Source of the DNA: an uncultured bacterium
GTDB lineage: Bacteria; Actinomycetota; Acidimicrobiia; Spongiisociales; UBA5794
Direction: 5' to 3'
DNA: 64,000 bases
NCBI GenBank assembly: GCA_963801165.1
Contig: CAWDDT010000005.1
Coordinates: forward strand, 64,001-128,000
A program made the position numbers and the translations under genes. Positions 28,833-37,686 of this stretch are shown piece by piece (positions within the stretch are counted from its first letter, which is position 1; the number at the start of each line of letters is the position of its first letter). The notes under the pieces are model-generated. The model saw nothing but the letters and a program-made list of their open reading frames with translations. It made no database searches and was not told the origin of the DNA.

Positions 28833-29747
28833 ATGGAGCCTGTGATCTCGCTGCGCCAGGTGCGCAAGACGTTTGGAAGCACGGTCGCCCTCGACGGGTT
28901 GGATCTCGAGGTCGCCGCGGGTGAGGTTCACGGGTATCTCGGACCCAACGGAGCCGGGAAGTCGGTGACGATCCGGGTGCTGCTCGGCCTGCTCCGCCGT
29001 GACGCAGGTGAAGCGCGCCTCTTCGGCGCCGACCCGTGGCCGAACGCAGTCGCACTGCACCGTCGTCTCGCCTACGTCCCCGGGGACGTCAGCTTGTGGC
29101 CGAACCTGTCGGGTGGAGAAGCCATCGATGTGCTGGCGTCGTTGCGGGGCGGGATCGACCGGCTCAAGCGAGACGAACTGATCGAGCGCTTCGAGCTCGA
29201 TCCACGGAAGAAGGCGTCCACCTACTCGAAGGGCAATAGACAGAAGGTGGCGCTCGTTGCGGGGCTGGCGTCGGATGCCGAGCTGCTGATCCTGGATGAG
29301 CCCACTTCCGGGCTCGATCCGCTGATGGAGTCGGTGTTCCAGGAGTGCATCCTGGAGAAGAAGGCGGAGGGGCGGACGGTGCTGCTGTCCAGCCACATAC
29401 TCGCCGAGGTGGAGAAACTGTGTGACCGGTTGACGATCATCCGGCTAGGCCGGTCGGTGGAACAGGGCACGTTGGCGGAGCTGCGACATATCACGAGCAC
29501 CTCGTATGCAGTCGAGACCGAGCGGCCGATCGTCGGCCTGGAATCGATCCCGGGGGTGCGGTCGATCACCGTCGACGGAAGTTCGACGACATTCGAGGCC
29601 GATGGAGACGCAGTGAATGCCGTGTTTGATGCTGTTCACGCCGCCGGGGTGCGTTCCCTGTTCGGCCAGCCGCCGACTCTGGAACAGCTGTTCCTCCGCC
29701 ACTACGAAACGGAGCTGAACGGGATCGCAGCCGGAGCCGGACTATGA
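28833..29747 (+). CDS. ABC exporter ATP-binding subunit (TnrB2-like)
   Basis: GPNGAGKS, YSKGNRQK, LILDEPTSGLD, LLSSH. Confidence 0.93.
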   Translation: MEPVISLRQVRKTFGSTVALDGLDLEVAAGEVHGYLGPNGAGKSVTIRVLLGLLRRDAGEARLFGADPWPNAVALHRRLAYVPGDVSLWPNLSGGEAIDVLASLRGGIDRLKRDELIERFELDPRKKASTYSKGNRQKVALVAGLASDAELLILDEPTSGLDPLMESVFQECILEKKAEGRTVLLSSHILAEVEKLCDRLTIIRLGRSVEQGTLAELRHITSTSYAVETERPIVGLESIPGVRSITVDGSSTTFEADGDAVNAVFDAVHAAGVRSLFGQPPTLEQLFLRHYETELNGIAAGAGL

Positions 29748-31378
29748 CAACCATGGTAGGGGCGCCGGGATCCGCCACCGCGGCCGGAGGTTTCACGGGC
29801 ACGATCCGTTTATTGCGGCTGGCGATTCGTCGCGATCGCGTCCGGCTCGCGGTGTGGGCTGCGTCGATAGCGGGCCTGGTCGGTGTATCGGCAGCAAGCG
29901 TTCACAGTCTGTACGGCACCGCCCGGCAACAGATGGAGTACGTCCAGGTCACCCAGGGCAACGCGGCCATGATCGTGCAATCGGGACCGGGGTATGGCCT
30001 CGACCACCCGACACTTGGAGCCATCTTCATGAACGAGACCGCCATCTGGACGATCATCCTCGTGGCCGTGCTCGGCATCCTGATGACTACCCGGCACACC
30101 CGGCTCGAGGAAGAGACGGCACGCTCCGAACTGGTTCGCTCGGCGCCGGTGGGCAGGTTCGCGGGAGCGACCGGCGGGCTCCTCGCGGTCCTGGTCGCCC
30201 AGGTCACCGTGGCGATCGTGGTTGTGCTCACCGTCGTCGGCTTCGGCTACGGACCGGTCGGGGCAATCGCCTTCGGGGCGGCCCTCGTCGTTGCCGGGAG
30301 CGCCTTCTCAGCGGTGACGCTCGTCGCCGCCCAGGTCGCCGCGTCGTCACGCACCGCCAGCGGTCTGGGCTTGATGGTGCTCGGTGTGGCGTTTGTAGTT
30401 CGCGCGTACGGTGACGTGGCCGTGCCGTGGTTGAGCTGGCTCTCCCCGATCCATTGGGCACAAGCAGTACGCGCCTTTGCGGGCGAGCAGTGGCTCGTTC
30501 TGGTCCTTCCCATCGCGCTGACCGCGGTGCTGCTTCCGGCGGCCGCCTCACTTGCGGAGCACCGCGACTTTGGCGGCGGGCTGCTCGACCCGCGACCTGG
30601 ACGAGCTGAGGCAGCTCCGACCCGCTACCCCTTGCTGCGTCTCGCAGCCGGGCTGCTCCGTGGCTCGATCATCAGCTGGGGCGTCGGGATCGCCGCCGGC
30701 GCGTTCTTCCTCGGCGTGGTCGCCGACCAGGTGGAGCAGATGGCCGCGGACAATCCTGCGATGAGCGGGCTCTTCAGCGTCGTCGGAAGCGGCTCGATAA
30801 CCGATACCTTCCTCGCCACCGCACTTCTCATCGTCGGCTTGCTCGCTGCCGGGTTCGCTATCTCGGCCGCGCTGCGCATGCACACCGAGGAAGCCGCCGG
30901 TCGTGTGGACCCCCTGCTCGCCACTCCGGTCGGCCGGGCTCGATGGGCGGGCAGCCATCTCGCGGTAACGATGGGAGCGCTGCTGGGTCTGATGGCGATC
31001 GGCGGCCTCGCCGGCGGGCTCGGTGCCGCCCTGGTGCTCAACGACCCCTCCCGGATCCTCGGCATGCTCGGTGGCGGCATCACCATGGCCGCCGGGGTTG
31101 CCGTGCTCGGTGGGATCGCGTTCCTCGTGTGCACTGCGGCGCCGCGGCTGGCGTTGCTGGCGTGGGTGCCGATGGTGCTCGCCGCATTCCTGAGCATGTT
31201 CGGCCGGTCACTCGGCCTCCCTTCCTGGTTGATGGACCTGTCACCGTATCAGCATGTGCCGGCACTTCCCGCGGCCCAATTCGATCTGGTTCCGATCGTC
31301 GCGTTGTCTCTGGTGACCGCCGGTGTGATCACGGCCGGTCTCCTCATCCTCCCCCGCCGGGACGTGGGACGCGCCTGA
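29744..31378 (+). CDS. ABC-2 exporter permease (TnrB3/polyether-ionophore resistance-like)
   Basis: 'FTGT.RL.RL..RRDR', 'RHTR.EEE..R.EL', 'EE.AGR.DP.LATPVGR.RW', terminal 'RRDV'; about 12 TM. Confidence 0.88.
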   Translation: MTTMVGAPGSATAAGGFTGTIRLLRLAIRRDRVRLAVWAASIAGLVGVSAASVHSLYGTARQQMEYVQVTQGNAAMIVQSGPGYGLDHPTLGAIFMNETAIWTIILVAVLGILMTTRHTRLEEETARSELVRSAPVGRFAGATGGLLAVLVAQVTVAIVVVLTVVGFGYGPVGAIAFGAALVVAGSAFSAVTLVAAQVAASSRTASGLGLMVLGVAFVVRAYGDVAVPWLSWLSPIHWAQAVRAFAGEQWLVLVLPIALTAVLLPAAASLAEHRDFGGGLLDPRPGRAEAAPTRYPLLRLAAGLLRGSIISWGVGIAAGAFFLGVVADQVEQMAADNPAMSGLFSVVGSGSITDTFLATALLIVGLLAAGFAISAALRMHTEEAAGRVDPLLATPVGRARWAGSHLAVTMGALLGLMAIGGLAGGLGAALVLNDPSRILGMLGGGITMAAGVAVLGGIAFLVCTAAPRLALLAWVPMVLAAFLSMFGRSLGLPSWLMDLSPYQHVPALPAAQFDLVPIVALSLVTAGVITAGLLILPRRDVGRA

Positions 31379-31590: not shown

Positions 31591-32622
<1,032 letters not shown>

Positions 32623-32677
32623 GATGTGGTCCTCTCGCGGCGTTTTCTTCTCGTCGCGCTCTATCTTCCCCCCCGAC

Positions 32678-33091
32678 ATGACACAACAGCAAACCTACGA
32701 CGAGCTCCAGGCGTATCTCATCGAGAGAGCGCACCTCCAATTCATCATCCAGCACGCGGTCGATGCGTGGGCGGCCCAACATGCCTCAGCCGAAACAAAA
32801 CCGATCGGGCTGACGTTTGCGCTCGTTGGGCTCTACCTCCACGTCGAGCGGAGGGCTACCGGCCGGTGGGTCCAGCAAGTGCACATGCGCTTGGGTCGAC
32901 GCAAACGAGAATGGCCCTCCTTCCCGATACCGGCCGATCGGGGCACCGTGACCGTGCTCGACGTCATGGCGAGAGATCCGGGCCCGGAGCGGTACCGGGC
33001 CATCGACGACTGGTGCGCTTCGGTGTGGGAGGCATACGCCGACAGCCATCAAGCGGTCGAAGACCTCCTAACCGATTACGAGATCATCTGA
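32678..33091 (+). CDS. DUF5946-like hypothetical protein
   Basis: 'FIIQHAVDAWAAQH...FALVGLYLHVE...VQQVHM...WCASVWEAY'. Confidence 0.7.
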   Translation: MTQQQTYDELQAYLIERAHLQFIIQHAVDAWAAQHASAETKPIGLTFALVGLYLHVERRATGRWVQQVHMRLGRRKREWPSFPIPADRGTVTVLDVMARDPGPERYRAIDDWCASVWEAYADSHQAVEDLLTDYEII

Positions 33092-33120
33092 CCCCGGTGC
33101 TGCCGAGTAACGTGGCCGCC

Positions 33121-33594
33121 ATGAGACCGAGCTGGGACGAGTACTTCCTCGAGTTGGTCGATCAGGTGGCGACCCGCGCAACCTGTGACCGCGGCAAGAG
33201 TGGCTGTGTCGTCGTGCGCAGCAAGCGCATCATCTGCACCGGGTACGTCGGCTCGCCTTCGGGGATGCCACACTGCGACGAGGCCGGCCACGATCTGAAG
33301 AAGGTCATGGACGACGATGGCACCGTACGTCAGCACTGTGTCCGCACAGTGCACGCCGAGCAGAACGCCATTGTGCAGGCGGCGCGCTACGGCCTCCAGC
33401 TCGACGGGACCACCCTGTATTGCTCGATGGAGCCATGTCGAGTATGCGCCATGCTGATCGCAAGCGCGGGGATCTCCAGGGTCGTTGCCAGGCGCCGCTA
33501 TCACGCAGGCGGGGACACTCCCGAAATCCTCTCTGCCGCCGGTGTCGACCTGGACATCCTCGAGGACGTGGTGGAGCAGTACGAGGGGCAGTAG
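33121..33594 (+). CDS. Deoxycytidylate deaminase (ComEB-like)
   Basis: RPSWDEYF, RATCDR, HAEQNA, PCRVC zinc motifs. Confidence 0.92.
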   Translation: MRPSWDEYFLELVDQVATRATCDRGKSGCVVVRSKRIICTGYVGSPSGMPHCDEAGHDLKKVMDDDGTVRQHCVRTVHAEQNAIVQAARYGLQLDGTTLYCSMEPCRVCAMLIASAGISRVVARRRYHAGGDTPEILSAAGVDLDILEDVVEQYEGQ

Positions 33595-33730
33595 CCGTCA
33601 GACTGCCGACGGGTGGATCATATCCTCAACCGCTGCCGCGTAGATCTCAGCATCGGGAGCGTGCCCGAAACAGATCGGCGCCCTATGAACCGCACCCGTC
33701 TCTGTGTGCAGCTCCACTAGCCTGGTCGCG

Positions 33731-33867
33731 TCGACTGAAGGGTGGCTAGGGTTCCGCTCGCTCCGGCGGGGTCTGGTCCGAGCGCCACGGAAGGCCCGAT
33801 GCGGGCTCGCACCTCACTGGACAAAAGCCTCGAGGGGATAGGTCGGCACGATTGAACGTGTGCCGAC
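33731..33867 (+). ncRNA. ykkC-family riboswitch (guanidine-I-like scaffold, variant) with expression platform
   Basis: GTGGC-TAGGGTTCCG...GTCTGGTCCGAGC-GCCAC (P1), GGCCCG/CGGGCT (P2), GG-ACAAAAG-CC (P3 loop); directly upstream of a transporter. Confidence 0.85.
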
Positions 33868-33880
33868 AATGGAGCCCTGC

Positions 33881-34786
33881 ATGTCCAGCCAACATCGTGC
33901 CCTTCACCTCAGAGCCGTTGCCGCGGCCCTGCTCGTCACCTTCCTGTGGAGCTCCTCCTGGGTGCTCATCCGGTGGGGGTTGGACGACGAGGCATTACAG
34001 CCGGTCACCTTTGCGGCGCTTCGCTACGGGCTGGCTGCCCTATTGCTCATCGGCTGGGTCGCTTCGAAGCGGCCCCTACGACAAACCATCTCCGGTCTCG
34101 ACCGCAGATCGCTCGTTCAGATCATCATCCTCGGCGTGGTCTTCTACACGATCACCCAGGGTGCCCAATTCGTCGCTATCGACAATCAACCGGCGGCGAC
34201 AACGAGCCTCGTCCTTTCCTGGAGCCCATTGCTGGTCGCCGCTCTGGGATCGCTGTTCATCGCCGAGACCGCGACCCGGCGGCAGATCGCAGGGGCGCTA
34301 CTCGTCGCTGCCGGGGCATGGGCGTACTTTGCGGGCGATCTCGGAGCGACCGCCCTTGGGATGATGGCGGCTCTGATCGCAATGGCAGCCAACGTCGCCA
34401 GCTCGCTGCTCGGCCGAAATGTCAACCGCCGGGCCGACTGTCCCCCCGTTGTCGTCACCGCAATCAGCATGGCCGTCGGTGCTGCCCTCCTTGTCGCTGT
34501 TGGCATCGGCACCGAAGGCATGCCTGCTGTCTCGGCACGAGCCTGGCTGATCATCGGCTGGCTCGCCGTGGTCAATACTGCTTTGGCGTTCACGCTCTGG
34601 AACTACTCGCTACGCCGGCTGTCCGCTCTCGAATCGACGGCGATCAACAACACAATGCTGATCCAGATCGCACTGCTGGCGTGGATCTTCCTCGACGAGA
34701 ACCTCGGCATCGCCGAGATCACAGGAATCGTCCTCGTCTCGATTGGTGTGCTCCTGAGCCAGGCCGCCCGCACGCGAGCCACCTGA
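33881..34786 (+). CDS. EamA/DMT family transporter
   Basis: Two EamA repeats: 'VTFLWSSSWVLIR...AALRY' and 'LAVVNTALAFTLWN...LAWIFLDE'; about 10 TM. Confidence 0.92.
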   Translation: MSSQHRALHLRAVAAALLVTFLWSSSWVLIRWGLDDEALQPVTFAALRYGLAALLLIGWVASKRPLRQTISGLDRRSLVQIIILGVVFYTITQGAQFVAIDNQPAATTSLVLSWSPLLVAALGSLFIAETATRRQIAGALLVAAGAWAYFAGDLGATALGMMAALIAMAANVASSLLGRNVNRRADCPPVVVTAISMAVGAALLVAVGIGTEGMPAVSARAWLIIGWLAVVNTALAFTLWNYSLRRLSALESTAINNTMLIQIALLAWIFLDENLGIAEITGIVLVSIGVLLSQAARTRAT

Positions 34787-34793
34787 GATCCCG

Positions 34794-34839
34794 TTCTGGC
34801 GTCGCAGACCGGAAAATGTTCCGGTCTGCGACGCCAGAA
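34794..34839. terminator. Perfect 21-bp-arm hairpin between convergent genes (bidirectional terminator or REP-like repeat)
   Basis: TTCTGGCGTCGCAGACCGGAA-AATG-TTCCGGTCTGCGACGCCAGAA. Confidence 0.7.
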
Positions 34840-34847
34840 TGGACGAG

Positions 34848-37496
34848 TTAACCCTTTTCGTTGAGAACTGCCTGGGCCGCAGCCAGACGGGCGACGGGCA
34901 CCCGGAACGGCGAGCAGCTCACGTAGTCGAGACCGAGTTCGTGGCACAGATGCACCGACTCTGGATCGCCACCGTGCTCACCGCAGATACCGATCTCCAT
35001 GCCGGGGCGGGTCTTGCGACCGCCGTCGACCGCGATCTTGATGAGACCGCCGACGCCGTCACGATCCAGCGTCTGGAACGGGTTGACCGGAAGGACGCCC
35101 TGATCGACGTACTGGATGAGGAAGCTCTTCTCGGCATCGTCACGGCTGATCGCAAACGTCGTCTGCGTCAGGTCGTTGGTGCCGAATGAGAAGAACTCGG
35201 CCTCGGTAGCAAGCTGATCGGCCGTCATCGCCGCACGTGGTGTCTCGACCATGGTGCCGACCTTGTAGTCGACCTTGACCCCGCGGGCCTCCATGACCTC
35301 TTCCGCCACCTCGACGATGAGCTTCTTGAGCAGCTTGATCTCGTTGACGTGAATCGACACCGGGATCATCACCTCGGGCATCGGCGTGGCACCGTTCTCC
35401 TTGGCGTCACAGGCCGCCTCGATGATTGCCCGCGCTTGCATCCTCGAGATCTCCGGCATCAGAACGCCGAGCCGAACGCCCCGGAAGCCGAGCATCGGGT
35501 TCTCCTCATGGAGCTCGTAGACCCGGGCCAGGATCTTCTCCAGCCGGGCGATCTCTGCGTCATCGGTTGCGGCGGCAATCTCACTCGTCAGCTCTTCTGC
35601 GCCGGGCAGGAACTCGTGCAACGGCGGGTCGATGAGACGGATGATCACGGGCATGCCGGACATCGCTTCGAACAGACCACGGAAGTCCTCACGCTGGAAC
35701 GGCAGCAGGACATCGAGTGCTTCCTGACGCTCCTCGACCGTGTCGGCGAGGATCATCTTTTGCACAGTGGGGAGCCGCTCTTCCTCGAAGAACATATGCT
35801 CGGTGCGACACAGACCGATGCCCTCAGCGCCGTAGTCACGGGCACGATTGGCATCGACCGGGTAATCGGCATTCGCCAGCACCTTGAGACGCCGGATGTC
35901 ATCAGCCCATCCGAGCAACGATGACAGCCAGTGGTCGTTGATGTCGGGAACGAACGTCGGCAGCTGGCCGAGGAAGACCTCGCCGCCTGTACCTTCGATG
36001 GAGATGAACTCGCCCTCGTTGATGACCCGACCACCAATCGACATGTTCCGGGCAGTGAGGTCGATGTTGAGCTCGGCGATACCAACAACGGCAGGTTTGC
36101 CGAATTGACGGGCTACGAGAGCAGCGTGGCTGGTACGGCCACCACGGCTGGTCACTATGCCCTTGGCAGCCAGCATGCCGTGCACGTCATCGGGCTTGGT
36201 CTCGGGCCGTACCAGGATGACGTCCTTGCCCTCGTCAGCCCACTCAACCGCCTGGTCTGCGTCGAAGGCGATGATGCCGACGGCGGCACCCGGAGAGACG
36301 TTGAGGCCCTTGGCGAGCAGGTCGCCCGCCTTGCGCGACTCGACGCTGAACTGCGGGTGGAGGAAGAAGTCGATCTGATCCGGGGTGACCCGTCCGACTG
36401 CTTCTTCCTTCGAGATGAGGCCCTCTTCGGCCATCTCGACCGCGATACGAACCGCAGCCTGTGCGGTGCGCTTACCGTCACGAGTCTGGAGCAGCCAGAG
36501 CTTGCCGCTCTCGATGGTGAACTCCATGTCCTGCATGTTCCGGTAGTGCTTCTCGAGCTGGTCGGCGGTTGCCAGCAGCTCGTCGTAGATCCCGGGCATG
36601 TTCTCCTTCATGTCGTCCAGGGTGAGCGTCGCCCGGATACCGGCAACGACGTCCTCGCCCTGGGCATTCATTAGGTAGTCGCCCTCGATGTGGTTGTCTC
36701 CGGTCGCACCGTGACGTGACATGGCAACGCCGGTACCGCAGTTGTCGCCCAGGTTGCCGAAGACCATCGTTTGCACGTTGACGGCAGTCCCGAGGTCGTG
36801 GGGGATGTGCGACGCGTTGCGGTAGTCGATGGCCCGCCTGCTGTTCCACGACCTGAAAACGGCCTCGACGGCGAGCTTGAGCTGTGCGTCCGGATCCAAC
36901 GGGAACTCGGGCGTTACCTCGAGGAAGCGCTCCACGATCTCCTGGAGCGACTCGGTGGAGAGATCGGCATCGATAGCGGCACCCGTCTTCTCACGGAACT
37001 CAGTGAGGATCTCCTCGTACGGCTCGTCCGGCTTGTCGAGAACGACCGAACCGAACATCTGAATGAGCCGGCGGTAAGAGTCATAGACGAAGTGGGCGTC
37101 GCCACTGATGTCGACCAACGACTCGGCTACCTCATGGTTGAGGCCGATGTCGAGAACGGTGTCCATCATCCCCGGCATCGAGAACTTGGCACCGGAGCGG
37201 CAAGAGACGAGGAGCGGGTTGCTGGGATCACCGAACTTCTTGCCGGTCTTCGCCTCGATCGTGGCGAGCGCCTCGGCCACCTGATCCCACATCCCTCCAG
37301 GTACCGTGCCGGCATCGCTGTAGGCGTTGCACGCCACGGTCGTGATCGTGAACCCGGGTGGCACCGGAACGCCCAACCTGGCCATGTCGGCGAGGTTCGC
37401 GCCCTTACCGCCGAGCAGACCGCGGACACTGTCCCAATCTCCGACGAGAGCCTCCGCTTCCGAGACCTCGTCGAAGGTATATACCCACTTCGTCAT
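34848..37496 (-). CDS. ppdK: Pyruvate, phosphate dikinase
   Basis: LLGGKGANL, PVPPGFTIT, SMPGMMDT, phospho-His GGRTSHAA, GLCRTEHMF, SFGTNDLTQ, GICGEHGG; start MTKWVY. Confidence 0.96.
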   Translation of the reverse strand: MTKWVYTFDEVSEAEALVGDWDSVRGLLGGKGANLADMARLGVPVPPGFTITTVACNAYSDAGTVPGGMWDQVAEALATIEAKTGKKFGDPSNPLLVSCRSGAKFSMPGMMDTVLDIGLNHEVAESLVDISGDAHFVYDSYRRLIQMFGSVVLDKPDEPYEEILTEFREKTGAAIDADLSTESLQEIVERFLEVTPEFPLDPDAQLKLAVEAVFRSWNSRRAIDYRNASHIPHDLGTAVNVQTMVFGNLGDNCGTGVAMSRHGATGDNHIEGDYLMNAQGEDVVAGIRATLTLDDMKENMPGIYDELLATADQLEKHYRNMQDMEFTIESGKLWLLQTRDGKRTAQAAVRIAVEMAEEGLISKEEAVGRVTPDQIDFFLHPQFSVESRKAGDLLAKGLNVSPGAAVGIIAFDADQAVEWADEGKDVILVRPETKPDDVHGMLAAKGIVTSRGGRTSHAALVARQFGKPAVVGIAELNIDLTARNMSIGGRVINEGEFISIEGTGGEVFLGQLPTFVPDINDHWLSSLLGWADDIRRLKVLANADYPVDANRARDYGAEGIGLCRTEHMFFEEERLPTVQKMILADTVEERQEALDVLLPFQREDFRGLFEAMSGMPVIIRLIDPPLHEFLPGAEELTSEIAAATDDAEIARLEKILARVYELHEENPMLGFRGVRLGVLMPEISRMQARAIIEAACDAKENGATPMPEVMIPVSIHVNEIKLLKKLIVEVAEEVMEARGVKVDYKVGTMVETPRAAMTADQLATEAEFFSFGTNDLTQTTFAISRDDAEKSFLIQYVDQGVLPVNPFQTLDRDGVGGLIKIAVDGGRKTRPGMEIGICGEHGGDPESVHLCHELGLDYVSCSPFRVPVARLAAAQAVLNEKG

Positions 37497-37686
37497 ACTT
37501 CTCCACCTATCGCTAGGGATTGCGCGTTCATTGGGGGTCGTTTGTGGGCCACAAAAACCCACGACACCACACCAGCAAACCCCCATTGGCGCAAGGGTCG
37601 AGCGCCACTGAAGATGTGCCAATTGGCCCGTTTCGGGCAAACCATCAAGTCGTACGGTAACAAGGTTACCGAGAGGAGAATCGGCT

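What the first reader, a model, noticed from the sequence alone, without database searches (positions are those of the whole stretch)
33731..33880. ykkC-scaffold riboswitch with an altered P3, possibly a different-ligand variant, before an EamA transporter
Seen: the ykkC hallmarks TAGGGTTCCG, CTGGTCCGAG and ACAAAAG are intact, but P3 reads ACCTCACTGG-ACAAAAG-CCTCGAGGGG, whereas I recall guanidine-I as about ACACGGCGGG-ACAAAAG-CCCGGGAG. A P0-like pairing TCGACT(33731-36)/GGTCGG(33841-46) competes with the hairpin GTCGGCAC/GTGCCGAC (33842-33867) just before the RBS. Known: ykkC variants sense guanidine, ppGpp, PRPP or ADP/CDP, and one subtype (2d) is orphan; ligand-contacting bases lie in and around P3. 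Inference: this RNA may bind something other than guanidine, and the EamA substrate would point to it.
Basis: partly seen in the sequence, partly recalled or inferred. Interest (0 to 1): 0.78.

Follow-up and report, generated by a model that had tools for sequence, protein, structure and literature searches.

The report
Orphan ykkC-variant riboswitch before EamA transporter
This is a real, well-conserved RNA switch built on the guanidine-riboswitch scaffold but with a changed binding pocket; it fits a known class that controls EamA transporters and whose ligand has not been identified.

Summary
Window 33730-33849 (+) is a complete ykkC-scaffold aptamer. It scores 47.9 bits against Rfam Guanidine-I, below the cut-off of 63. 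It scores 130.2 bits (E 4e-35) against a model built from 33 relatives that excludes the window.

It carries C33783 at the position where guanidine-I has an adenosine, which is the published rule for "subtype 2". It has an extra outer helix P0 (33730-35/33842-47) supported by covariation. Its P3 (CACCUCA..GGACAAAAGCCUCGAGGGG) is almost invariant.

Among homologues not selected by motif, 19 of 21 lie before an EamA gene. Among motif-selected ones, 68 of 69 do. That matches the published orphan "ykkC subtype 2d", which is linked to EamA/phn_DUF6 and has no known ligand. I could not read the 2d consensus, so membership rests on scaffold, discriminator base and gene association.

New here:
- There are two sub-architectures. 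The window's group A keeps the junction motifs and the residues I infer to be the phosphate-binding residues of PRPP/ppGpp aptamers.
- A conserved -10 box places the transcript start at P0.
- A hairpin that competes with P0 sits directly before the Shine-Dalgarno sequence.

The most likely mechanism is a translational ON switch for an exporter, responding to an unidentified, probably anionic, metabolite. It is a new member of a known orphan class and of moderate interest.

The parts
33718..33723 (+). -10-like promoter hexamer TAGCCT (TANNNT). It ends 6 nt before P0, so the transcript probably starts at or next to 33730.
   Evidence: A TANNNT hexamer starts 15 to 10 nt before P0 in 49 of 50 distinct group A leaders. 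In a control position (-36 to -31) it occurs in 0 of 50. That TANNNT is the actinobacterial -10 consensus is recalled, not tested. A sigma-70 consensus scan found no promoter.
33730..33735 (+). P0 5' strand, GUCGAC
   Evidence: It pairs with 33842-47. Five of 6 P0 pairs show changes on both sides in 33 group A sequences, and 6 of 6 in 72 sequences. RNAalifold predicts the helix.
33736..33741 (+). J0/1 junction, UGAAGG. It is part of the group A motif GAAGGG.
   Evidence: GAAGGG is present in 39 of 50 distinct group A sequences, 0 of 34 group B and 11 of 40 Firmicutes subtype 2a/2b-type RNAs. The latter mostly read GAAAGUG or similar (37 of 40).
33742..33788 (+). P1/P1a domain. P1 is 33742-46 with 33784-88. 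The conserved core CUAGGGUUCCG is 33746-56. The P1a hairpin is 33757-61/33766-70. GGUCCGAG is 33775-82.
   Evidence: Full-length alignment to RF00442 and to R2. All 6 pairs of the P1a helix and 2 of 5 P1 pairs covary in group A.
33783..33783 (+). Subtype discriminator, C. Guanidine-I has A here (A46 in the numbering of Reiss et al.).
   Evidence: The alignment shows GAGAG in the model against GAGCG here. C is found in 49 of 50 group A (1 not parsed) and 32 of 34 group B (2 not parsed). Firmicutes 2a/2b-type RNAs read T 21, C 17, G 2 of 40. The rule comes from PMC6031431 and PMC8457001.
33790..33810 (+). P2 hairpin: G33790-C33810, and 33793-97 with 33803-07.
   Evidence: Three of 5 stem pairs covary in group A.
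33812..33835 (+). P3. CCUC 33812-15 can pair with GAGG 33832-35. GG 33819-20 pairs with CC 33828-29. The A-rich loop ACAAAAG is 33821-27.
   Evidence: The sequence is nearly invariant. CCUCGAGG occurs in 20 of 21 homologues not selected by motif and in 0 of 40 Firmicutes 2a/2b-type RNAs. There is no covariation, so the lower helix is only a prediction. The fourth pair is unpaired in 6 of 33 sequences.
33836..33841 (+). J3/0 junction, GGAUAG. With the preceding GG it reads GGGGAUAGG.
   Evidence: It resembles the CGGGUAGGU of the purE/ilvE-associated RNAs printed. GGGGA[U/G/C]A occurs in 35 of 50 group A and 0 of 34 group B.
33842..33849 (+). P0 3' strand GUCGGC (33842-47) plus the invariant AC. 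This segment is shared with the competing hairpin.
33842..33867 (+). Anti-P0 hairpin, 33842-50 paired with 33859-67 (dG -15.9 kcal/mol). It is mutually exclusive with P0.
   Evidence: A hairpin that uses at least 4 of the 6 P0 3'-strand bases is predicted in 46 of 50 distinct group A leaders, with median dG -15.7. It is not followed by a U run, and no terminator-like site was found.
33871..33874 (+). Shine-Dalgarno GGAG. It starts 3 nt after the hairpin and ends 6 nt before the start codon.
   Evidence: Read directly from the sequence. An SD-like motif begins a median of 2 nt after the hairpin in group A.
33881..34786 (+). EamA-family (DMT superfamily) transporter gene, 301 aa.
   Evidence: Pfam PF00892 matches at E 1.6e-34 with two EamA repeats. 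The best NCBIfam hit is TIGR00950 at 86 bits, below its cut-off of 230.
34794..34839 (.). A perfect 21-bp inverted repeat with a 4-nt loop, lying between the convergent EamA and pyruvate phosphate dikinase genes. It marks the likely end of the transcription unit.
   Evidence: Read directly. The consensus terminator scan does not call it because there is no T run.

Best explanation
Window 33730-33849 encodes the aptamer of a ykkC-scaffold riboswitch of the non-guanidine kind (subtype 2). It belongs to the EamA-associated group that the literature calls subtype 2d, whose ligand is unknown.

The leader is transcribed from its own promoter (-10 box at 33718-23) and starts at the outer helix P0.

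Inferred mechanism:
- When the ligand is bound, P3 docks and P0 (33730-35/33842-47) is held shut. The segment 33859-67 then stays single-stranded, the Shine-Dalgarno sequence (33871-74) sits in an open stretch, and the EamA transporter is translated.
- Without ligand, the 3' strand of P0 is captured in the stronger hairpin 33842-50/33859-67. That hairpin abuts the Shine-Dalgarno sequence. In many relatives it can be extended by pairing of a P3 CCUC with the GAGG of the Shine-Dalgarno sequence. Initiation is then hindered.

The switch is therefore most likely a translational ON switch for an exporter.

The ligand is not guanidine. The RNA keeps P0 and the residues I infer to be the phosphate- and metal-binding residues of PRPP/ppGpp aptamers, so I favour a small anionic (phosphate-, phosphonate- or sulfonate-bearing) metabolite.

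Shown here: the fold, the discriminator base, covariation, the gene association, the promoter box, and the P0/hairpin competition. Inferred: the direction of switching, the way the hairpin represses, and the chemical nature of the ligand.
For: Scaffold:
- RF00442 matches over its full length at 47.9 bits.
- R2, built from 33 relatives without the window, gives 130.2 bits, E 4.3e-35.
- On those 33 sequences, 95.5% of cells are paired against 87.1% in shuffles. Sixteen of 33 pairs change on both sides, and 0 of 500 shuffles reach the observed values. Sliding the partners by 1-3 columns drops pairing to 32-47%.

Subtype 2:
- C33783 sits at the A46-equivalent position (rule read).
- P0 covaries at 5 of 6 pairs.
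- Real purE- and ilvE-associated RNAs also hit only RF00442, below its cut-off (57.9-61.5 bits). Rfam therefore has no separate subtype-2 families, and a sub-threshold hit is expected.

Gene association:
- Nineteen of 21 homologues found by model search alone precede an EamA gene. Thirteen were confirmed by Pfam and 6 by 59-92% identity to the window protein.
- Among loci found by the P3 motif, 68 of 69 downstream proteins, the window's included, match PF00892.
- The review PMC7266159 assigns EamA/phn_DUF6 and TauE transporters to orphan subtype 2d. PMC5912903 says the same for phn_DUF6.

Functional conservation:
- Seven of 9 intact EamA orthologues (59% identity or more) in 61 related genomes carry the aptamer.
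- One frameshifted orthologue has a decayed aptamer scoring 9.9 bits.

Platform:
- The -10 box is present in 49 of 50 leaders.
- The anti-P0 hairpin is present in 46 of 50, with an SD-like motif a median of 2 nt later.
- With the aptamer enforced, the predicted unpaired probability of the Shine-Dalgarno sequence rises in 12 of 17 leaders.

ON direction:
- Guanidine-I, ppGpp and PRPP classes are all ON switches, and P0 is part of their expression platform (PMC6031431).
Against: - I could not read the published 2d consensus. Sherlock 2019, Nelson 2017 and Peselis 2018 are not held, and supplements are closed. Identity with 2d therefore rests on gene association and the subtype-2 rule.
- PMC5912903 says the 2d consensus is the one most like guanidine-I and proposes a small guanidine-like cation. 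The window's group looks more like 2a/2b at its junctions, which fits that description poorly.
- The window's EamA is not of the phn_DUF6 type. Its best NCBIfam hit is TIGR00950, whereas 34 of 69 downstream proteins, all from the other architecture group, hit TIGR03340.
- By whole-model score, group B (36-61 bits on R2) is no closer to group A than purE/ilvE RNAs are (42-55 bits). Joining A and B rests on the shared P3 and the EamA link, and group B was collected with a P3 pattern.
- The hairpin does not itself cover the Shine-Dalgarno sequence and has no U tail. The folding test is weak: 4 of 17 leaders go the other way and 1 is unchanged.
- Two intact orthologues (in G002 and G044) have no aptamer within about 440 nt upstream.
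- There are no expression data.
Confidence: 0.7

Rival explanations
1. Group A, the window's type, is a separate ykkC subtype that has not been described and is not the published 2d. On this reading it senses its own ligand, plausibly a phosphorylated metabolite or alarmone, and controls a TIGR00950-like EamA clade. Published 2d would correspond to group B, the phn_DUF6-type genes of Actinomycetes.
For: - Group A has GAAGGG in J0/1 (39 of 50) and GGGGAnA in J3/0 (35 of 50). Group B has neither (0 of 34 for each).
- The group A model scores group B at 36-61 bits, the same range as purE/ilvE RNAs.
- The two groups precede different EamA clades: 33 proteins hit TIGR00950 and 34 hit TIGR03340.
- The 2018 paper names only phn_DUF6 for 2d and calls it guanidine-I-like.
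Against: - Groups A and B share an almost identical 26-nt P3 and the same discriminator C.
- The 2020 review speaks of 'EamA' transporters in general.
- Group A also occurs outside Acidimicrobiia MAG records (L075 Phytoactinopolyspora, and Trueperaceae/Deinococcaceae/Rubrobacteraceae MAGs). From recall, I expect earlier Infernal searches to have picked such lineages up.
Confidence: 0.2
2. It senses one of the known subtype-2 ligands: ppGpp/pppGpp, PRPP, or ADP/CDP and their deoxy forms.
For: - It has P0.
- It has the bases I infer to correspond to PRPP-aptamer residues G48, C49, C75, C77, C78 and G104: G33782, C33783, C33810, C33812, C33813 and G33841. The mapping combines the residue names read in PMC6031431 with the purE/ilvE-type sequences.
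- Its J3/0 resembles that of 2a/2b.
Against: - CCUCGAGG is absent from 40 of 40 Firmicutes 2a/2b-type RNAs, and CA[CU]CU[CG]A is present in only 1 of 40.
- None of the 21 + 69 downstream genes is a purine, branched-chain amino acid, glutamate synthase, NUDIX or HAD gene.
- PMC6003355 reports that all other subtype-2 RNAs examined failed to bind ppGpp or guanidine. I do not know whether a group A RNA was among them.
- No 2c (NUDIX-linked) example was retrieved, so the sequence comparison with 2c was not made.
Confidence: 0.08
3. It is a diverged guanidine-I riboswitch that still senses guanidine and drives a guanidine exporter.
For: - The only Rfam family that matches is Guanidine-I.
Against: - The score is below the gathering cut-off (47.9 against 63).
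- C replaces the A46-equivalent, and the ACGG of P3 reads CCUC.
- Two RNAs from the same phylum keep GAGAG and ACACGGCGGGAGAAAAGCCCGGGAG and precede other genes (L030 a sodium:solute symporter, L027 a solute-binding protein). The guanidine type therefore coexists with the variant as a separate form.
Confidence: 0.03
4. It is a relic aptamer that no longer regulates anything.
For: - Relics exist. G057 has a frameshifted EamA and a 9.9-bit remnant.
- The copy before a glutamate dehydrogenase gene (L016) lacks the -10 box and the hairpin, and has changes at otherwise invariant bases.
Against: - The window copy matches the group consensus throughout at 130.2 bits.
- It has the -10 box, the hairpin, the Shine-Dalgarno sequence and an intact 301-aa gene.
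Confidence: 0.02

Closest known systems
ykkC subtype 2d orphan riboswitch candidate (Breaker laboratory; described in PMC5912903 and PMC7266159)
   Same: - ykkC scaffold.
- Pyrimidine at the guanidine-I A46 position.
- Located in the 5' leader of EamA-family (phn_DUF6) transporter genes.
- Ligand unknown. It was still called orphan in 2021 (PMC8457001) and 2023 (PMC9881157), and no later paper in the held library names a ligand.
   Different: - The published consensus could not be read, so base-by-base identity is untested.
- The window's transporter is TIGR00950-like, not phn_DUF6-like.
- No TauE-associated copy was seen among the 69 motif-selected plus 21 model-found loci.
- The window's group has junction motifs that look like 2a/2b rather than guanidine-I.
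Guanidine-I riboswitch (Rfam RF00442, ykkC subtype 1)
   Same: - P1/P1a/P2/P3 architecture.
- CUAGGGUUCCG and GGUCCGAG cores.
- A-rich P3 loop.
- ON-switch logic for an efflux-type gene (inferred for the window).
   Different: - A46 is replaced by C.
- P3 5' strand ACGG reads CCUC, and the 3' strand GGGAG reads UCGAGGGG.
- It has the extra helix P0.
- It scores below the Rfam cut-off.
- It is not linked to guanidine carboxylase or Gdx genes.
PRPP (2b) and ppGpp (2a) riboswitches
   Same: - P0 helix whose 3' strand is shared with the expression platform.
- Pyrimidine discriminator.
- CACC at the start of P3.
- A GGG(n)UAGGU-like J3/0.
- A GAAG-type J0/1.
   Different: - P3 reads CACCUCAnnGGAnAAAAGCCUCGAGGGG here, against ACACCGnnGGGAUAAAAGCCCnGGCGGGUAGGUUUC in the 2a/2b examples.
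- P0 lies 6 nt further out on the 5' side.
- The platform is a hairpin next to the Shine-Dalgarno sequence, not an intrinsic terminator.
- The genes controlled are EamA transporters.
- The hosts are Actinomycetota and a few Deinococcota rather than Firmicutes.

Membership tests
ykkC motif scaffold | Three-hairpin fold (P1/P1a, P2, P3) with conserved CUAGGGUUCCG, GGUCCGAG and an A-rich P3 loop. | tested here: met
   Full-length RF00442 alignment. R2 gives 130.2 bits. P1, P1a and P2 covary.
Guanidine-I (RF00442) | Score at or above Rfam's gathering cut-off of 63 bits. | tested here: not met
   47.9 bits.
Guanidine-I (RF00442) | Adenosine at the A46-equivalent position, and purines in the P3 pocket (ACGR on the 5' strand, the S-turn guanosines on the 3' strand). 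| tested here: not met
   C33783, CCUC at 33812-15 and UCGAGG on the 3' strand. The positions were taken from PMC5340920, PMC6031431 and PMC8457001.
Guanidine-I (RF00442) | Association with guanidine carboxylase, Gdx/SugE or related genes. | tested here: not met
   The downstream gene is an EamA transporter. Nineteen of 21 homologues have the same gene.
ykkC subtype 2 (any) | Pyrimidine at the A46-equivalent position. | tested here: met
   C33783. C is found in 49 of 50 group A sequences.
ykkC subtype 2 (any) | Conservation extended 5' and 3' of the three hairpins, forming helix P0. | tested here: met
   33730-35 pairs with 33842-47. Five of 6 pairs covary in group A and 6 of 6 in 72 sequences.
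ykkC subtype 2d | Located upstream of EamA/phn_DUF6 or TauE transporter genes. | tested here: met
   PF00892 at E 1.6e-34. The window protein matches TIGR00950 rather than TIGR03340, and both are below their cut-offs.
ykkC subtype 2d | The subtype's own consensus at the pocket positions. | not testable with these tools
   The papers holding the consensus are not held. Figures and supplements are not available.
ykkC subtype 2d | Fails to bind guanidine, ppGpp and PRPP. | not testable with these tools
   This needs in-line probing.
ykkC subtype 2a/2b (ppGpp, PRPP) | P3 and J3/0 sequence as in RNAs before purine or branched-chain amino acid genes. | tested here: not met
   CCUCGAGG occurs in 0 of 40 Firmicutes examples whose downstream genes include purE (17), purB (3), purL, purK and ilvE (3). 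The window differs in both P3 strands.
ykkC subtype 2c ((d)ADP/(d)CDP) | Association with NUDIX or HAD hydrolase genes, and the subtype's own pocket bases. | tested here: inconclusive
   The gene context is not met (EamA). No 2c example was retrieved, so the sequences were not compared.

The most novel reading that the evidence does not exclude
The window's group A is a ykkC subtype of its own, distinct from the phn_DUF6-linked RNAs published as 2d. It combines the 2d-type P3 with the P0, the junctions and the inferred phosphate-binding platform of PRPP/ppGpp aptamers. It senses a phosphorylated or otherwise anionic metabolite or signal, not a guanidine-like cation as proposed in print. It switches on a dedicated EamA exporter in Acidimicrobiia, other Actinomycetota and some Deinococcota.
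Probability: 0.2. Interest if true: 0.7.

Novelty: new member of a known kind. Interest (0 to 1): 0.42.

Why it matters
ykkC subtype 2d is the last orphan among the ykkC variants. Every solved sibling revealed a ligand of broad importance: guanidine, ppGpp, PRPP and nucleoside diphosphates.

This locus, with at least 84 distinct relatives collected here, supplies material for a ligand search:
- a defined 120-nt construct with its natural 5' end;
- a simple translational platform suited to reporter assays;
- two sub-architectures that share one P3;
- the observation that the inferred phosphate-binding platform of the PRPP/ppGpp aptamers is retained, which widens the ligand candidates beyond guanidine-like cations.

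Identifying the ligand would also assign a substrate or a physiological role to two uncharacterised EamA transporter clades.

Tried and rejected
- Default Rfam scan of the window: no family reached its cut-off.
- Papers not held: Sherlock 2019, Nelson 2017 and Peselis 2018. Construct sequences were not found in the text of PMC6031431 or PMC5912903, so the residue numbering of the PRPP aptamer was mapped by inference only.
- Consensus promoter and terminator scan of 33500-34950: 0 sites of each kind.
- Single-sequence folding of 33728-33900: z-score -1.06, uninformative, and the minimum-energy fold does not reproduce the aptamer.
- Search for one universal anti-Shine-Dalgarno partner: none found. 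In the window and its congeners the predicted partner is GGGUUCC of the conserved core; in others it is a CCUC of P3. I therefore do not claim direct sequestration.
- Conserved neighbours as a ligand clue. Group A has none beyond the EamA gene. Group B sits in a conserved haem and cytochrome c biogenesis neighbourhood, which may only reflect shared ancestry.
- The glutamate dehydrogenase-linked copy (L016/L106) as a clue to nitrogen metabolism. I rejected it as a probable relic: it has no -10 box and no hairpin, it carries changed invariant bases, and no EamA orthologue was found in that genome with this query.
- Eight of 80 motif loci (L038, L051, L061, L062, L065, L090, L091, L096) have no ykkC match with R1 or Rfam and were dropped as chance matches.
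- L009 was dropped as a false Rfam hit (28.4 bits; no conserved motifs).
- L031 (unpublished genome G364) and the G050 hit were not used.
Full report
**What is in the sequence**

- The ykkC core motifs are TAGGGTTCCG (33747-56) and CTGGTCCGAG (33773-82).
- The A-rich loop ACAAAAG (33821-27) is flanked by CACCTCACTGG and CCTCGAGGGG.
- An outer pairing joins GTCGAC (33730-35) with GTCGGC (33842-47).
- A hairpin (33842-50/33859-67) reuses GTCGGC.
- GGAG (33871-74) and ATG (33881) follow.

A default Rfam scan of the whole window finds nothing. With an E-value threshold, the Guanidine-I model RF00442 aligns over its full length to 33735-33837 at 47.9 bits, against a cut-off of 63, with E 1e-7. It is the only such match in the 4.55 Mb genome.

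The alignment shows two kinds of departure from guanidine-I. GAGAG reads GAGCG (C33783). The P3 strands read CCUC and UCGAGGGG where the model has ACGG and GGGAG.

**Relatives**

RF00442 found eight related copies in 61 related genomes, all below the cut-off. A ninth hit, L009, has none of the motifs and was dropped.

I built model R1 from the eight, with P0 included. Its hits:

| Sample | Genomes with a hit |
|---|---|
| Same order | 16 of 151 |
| Same class | 8 of 151 |
| Same phylum | 6 of 151 |

These totals include G000 and repeats of genomes between the three samples, and two canonical guanidine-I-like RNAs (L030, L027). One hit lies in an unpublished genome and was not used.

Aligned together, 21 RNAs are of the window's variant type. 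Twenty of the 21 carry CCUCGAGG. L030 and L027 keep GAGAG and the guanidine-type P3, and they precede a sodium:solute symporter and a solute-binding protein.

Eighty were shown. R1 confirmed 72 of the 80. The other 8 have no ykkC match in Rfam either.

By their record titles, the confirmed hosts are mostly Actinomycetota: Acidimicrobiia, Actinomycetes, Streptosporangiaceae, Nitriliruptorales, Rubrobacteraceae and Solirubrobacterales. There are also three Deinococcota MAGs, and single MAGs labelled Acidobacteriota and Melainabacteria.

**Structure**

On 33 group A sequences that exclude the window and its genus (alignment A7):
- 95.5% of cells form standard pairs, against 87.1% in shuffles.
- Sixteen of 33 pairs change on both sides.
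- Zero of 500 shuffles reach the observed values.
- Sliding the partners by 1-3 columns leaves 32-47% paired.

Five of 6 P0 pairs, 6 of 6 P1a pairs, 2 of 5 P1 pairs and 3 of 5 P2 pairs covary. P3 does not vary, so its lower helix (CCUC/GAGG) remains a prediction. The fourth pair is broken in 6 of 33 sequences.

Two caveats apply. The alignment was fitted to the model's structure, which favours that structure. All 33 sequences came from the P3-motif scan, so the invariance of P3 is partly by construction. The 21 RNAs that were not motif-selected show the same invariance.

Model R2, built from A7, scores the window at 130.2 bits, E 4.3e-35, over 33730-33849. This is the only hit in the window.

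**Which ykkC kind**

Passages read in PMC6031431 and PMC8457001 state the sorting rule. The adenosine A46 of guanidine-I is a pyrimidine in subtype 2, and sorting by this one position separates the guanidine gene contexts from the others. The window has C at that position.

The same papers and PMC9881157 describe the extra helix P0 formed by the two ends of subtype 2 aptamers, and the window has one.

As a control I collected 40 sub-threshold RF00442 hits from 151 Bacillota genomes. Their downstream genes fall into these groups:

| Downstream gene | Number |
|---|---|
| purE | 17 |
| xanthine/uracil permease | 5 |
| purB | 3 |
| ilvE-type aminotransferase | 3 |
| purL | 1 |
| purK | 1 |
| other transporters or unassigned | 10 |

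This is the PRPP and ppGpp context. Their discriminator base is T in 21, C in 17 and G in 2. All 40 start P3 with ACACC. None has CCUCGAGG. Three of them also hit only RF00442, at 57.9-61.5 bits. Rfam 15 therefore has no separate families for subtype 2, and a sub-threshold Guanidine-I hit is what any subtype 2 RNA gives.

The window is thus a subtype 2 RNA by the published rule, but it is not of the 2a/2b type. No NUDIX-linked (2c) example turned up, so that comparison is missing.

**Gene association and the link to subtype 2d**

The gene at 33881-34786 encodes a 301-aa EamA-family transporter (PF00892, E 1.6e-34). Nineteen of the 21 model-found variants precede an EamA gene: 13 confirmed by Pfam and 6 by 59-92% identity to the window protein. 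The exceptions are L016, before a large NAD-glutamate dehydrogenase, and L029, with a weak MFS match below cut-off.

Of 69 downstream proteins in the motif-selected set plus the window, 68 match PF00892 and 1 is the glutamate dehydrogenase.

The review PMC7266159 states that subtype 2d RNAs regulate transporters annotated as EamA (originally phn_DUF6) and TauE, in response to an undetermined ligand. PMC5912903 says the same for phn_DUF6. Subtype 2d was still called orphan in 2021 and 2023. Six searches of the held library found no paper naming a ligand.

I therefore file the window under this class. One reservation remains: the papers and supplements that show the 2d consensus could not be read.

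**Two architectures**

The collected RNAs fall into two groups.

| Feature | Group A (50 distinct; the window belongs here) | Group B (34 distinct) |
|---|---|---|
| Hosts | Mostly Acidimicrobiia | MAGs labelled Actinomycetes, Streptosporangiaceae, Solirubrobacterales and others |
| P0 | GUCGAC/GUCGGC | Own conserved flanks |
| J0/1 GAAGGG | 39 of 50 | 0 of 34 |
| J3/0 GGGGAnA | 35 of 50 | 0 of 34 |
| P1 | GUGGC | GCGCC, with a long P1a |
| Downstream protein, best NCBIfam hit | TIGR00950 (33 proteins) | TIGR03340 phn_DUF6 (34 proteins) |

All the NCBIfam hits are below cut-off.

Both groups share the discriminator C and the P3 signature. By whole-model score, however, group B is no closer to group A (36-61 bits on R2) than purE/ilvE RNAs are (42-55 bits). 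Group B was found through the P3 pattern, so its P3 identity is by selection. That all 34 group B RNAs precede EamA-type genes is not by selection.

Two outcomes remain open. The published 2d may cover both groups or only group B. Group A may be an undescribed sibling.

**Hints about the ligand**

PMC6031431 lists the residues that hold PRPP and ppGpp: G48, C49, C75, C77, C78, G96, G104 and G6. Matching these names to the purE/ilvE-type sequences (ACACC = 74-78; UAGG = 102-105) is my inference. On that mapping the window keeps:
- G33782 and C33783;
- C33810, C33812 and C33813;
- G33841.

A74 is G in most of group A ([G/C]CACC in 42 of 50) and A in group B.

Together with P0, this argues for an anionic, possibly phosphate-bearing ligand. 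The published suggestion, a small toxic cation like guanidine, is not excluded.

Group A has no conserved neighbours besides the transporter.

**Expression platform**

A TANNNT hexamer starts 15 to 10 nt before P0 in 49 of 50 distinct group A leaders and in 0 of 50 at a control position. In the window it is TAGCCT at 33718-23. The transcript therefore probably begins at P0.

A hairpin that uses at least 4 of the 6 P0 3'-strand bases is predicted in 46 of 50 leaders, with median dG -15.7 kcal/mol. A Shine-Dalgarno-like motif follows a median of 2 nt later. The hairpin has no U tail, and no terminator-like site is called. P0 and the hairpin cannot form together.

All characterised ykkC classes are ON switches whose P0 or P3 3' strand is shared with the platform. 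By analogy, ligand-stabilised P0 should leave the region before the Shine-Dalgarno sequence single-stranded and allow initiation.

Folding with the aptamer enforced raises the predicted unpaired probability of the Shine-Dalgarno sequence in 12 of 17 leaders, lowers it in 4 and leaves 1 unchanged. This is weak support. How the hairpin represses is inferred, not shown.

**Co-inheritance**

Among 61 related genomes, 9 hold an intact orthologue of the transporter at 59% identity or more. Seven of those carry the aptamer. Two (G002 and G044) have none within about 440 nt upstream. A tenth genome (G057) has a frameshifted gene and an aptamer remnant of 9.9 bits.

The copy next to glutamate dehydrogenase lacks the -10 box and the hairpin and has changes at invariant bases. 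It is probably a relic.

**Verdict**

The element is real, intact and under selection. It is a ykkC subtype 2 riboswitch that controls an EamA transporter. It fits the known orphan subtype 2d by every criterion I could test, so the kind is known and this is a new member.

The open points are the ligand, the direction and mode of switching, and whether the window's architecture group was part of the published class.

Noticed in passing
L092, L084, L072, L089 and 30 other loci (group B; flanks printed): The phn_DUF6-type group has its own conserved leader. A TAnnCT box comes first, then CAGCAUGUGGCUGCGC before the core. After P3 come GCUCUGUUAGCCGUGCCC, a small GCCC/GGGC hairpin, and CAGGAGCCGCC before a GUG start. 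Its outer helix could not be settled by eye.
   Followed up: partly
L089:1539-6992, L081:3381-5228, L040:4384-5442: In group B the riboswitch-EamA unit lies between hemL (Aminotran_3) with hemB (ALAD) on one side and a divergent His_Phos_1, ResA-like thioredoxin, ResB and CcsB cytochrome c biogenesis cluster on the other. This may be only inherited synteny, or it may be a hint towards haem-precursor metabolism.
   Followed up: partly
L016 / L106 (same place in genome G023): A group A aptamer (116-131 bits) lies 68 nt before a large NAD-glutamate dehydrogenase gene. It has no -10 box and no anti-P0 hairpin, and it reads CCAGGG for CUAGGG and GA for GG in the apical P3 pair. No EamA orthologue was found in that genome with this query.
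   Followed up: partly
L221 (G057:C12:9750-10250) and G057:C12:8917-9805: An EamA orthologue is split into two frames (70% and 73% identity pieces), and its upstream aptamer has decayed to 9.9 bits. Gene and switch appear to be decaying together.
   Followed up: yes
window 32047-33594 (+): A 515-aa protein has a C-terminal cytidine/dCMP deaminase domain (residues 362-481) and about 360 N-terminal residues with no Pfam match. Its weak NCBIfam hits are ComEB (101.6 bits, cut-off 219) and anti-phage dCTP deaminase (52 bits, cut-off 400).
   Followed up: no
window 34794-34839: A perfect 21-bp inverted repeat with a 4-nt loop lies between the convergent EamA gene and a 930-aa pyruvate phosphate dikinase gene (34848-37640, minus strand). 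It is probably a two-way terminator without a T run.
   Followed up: no
L188, L209 (Bacillota): Two sub-threshold ykkC RNAs have G, neither A nor a pyrimidine, at the discriminator position. They precede an M20 peptidase gene and an ABC permease gene.
   Followed up: no
window 29744-31378 (+): A 544-aa ORF with no Pfam match directly follows a DrrA-like ABC ATPase gene (28833-29747).
   Followed up: no
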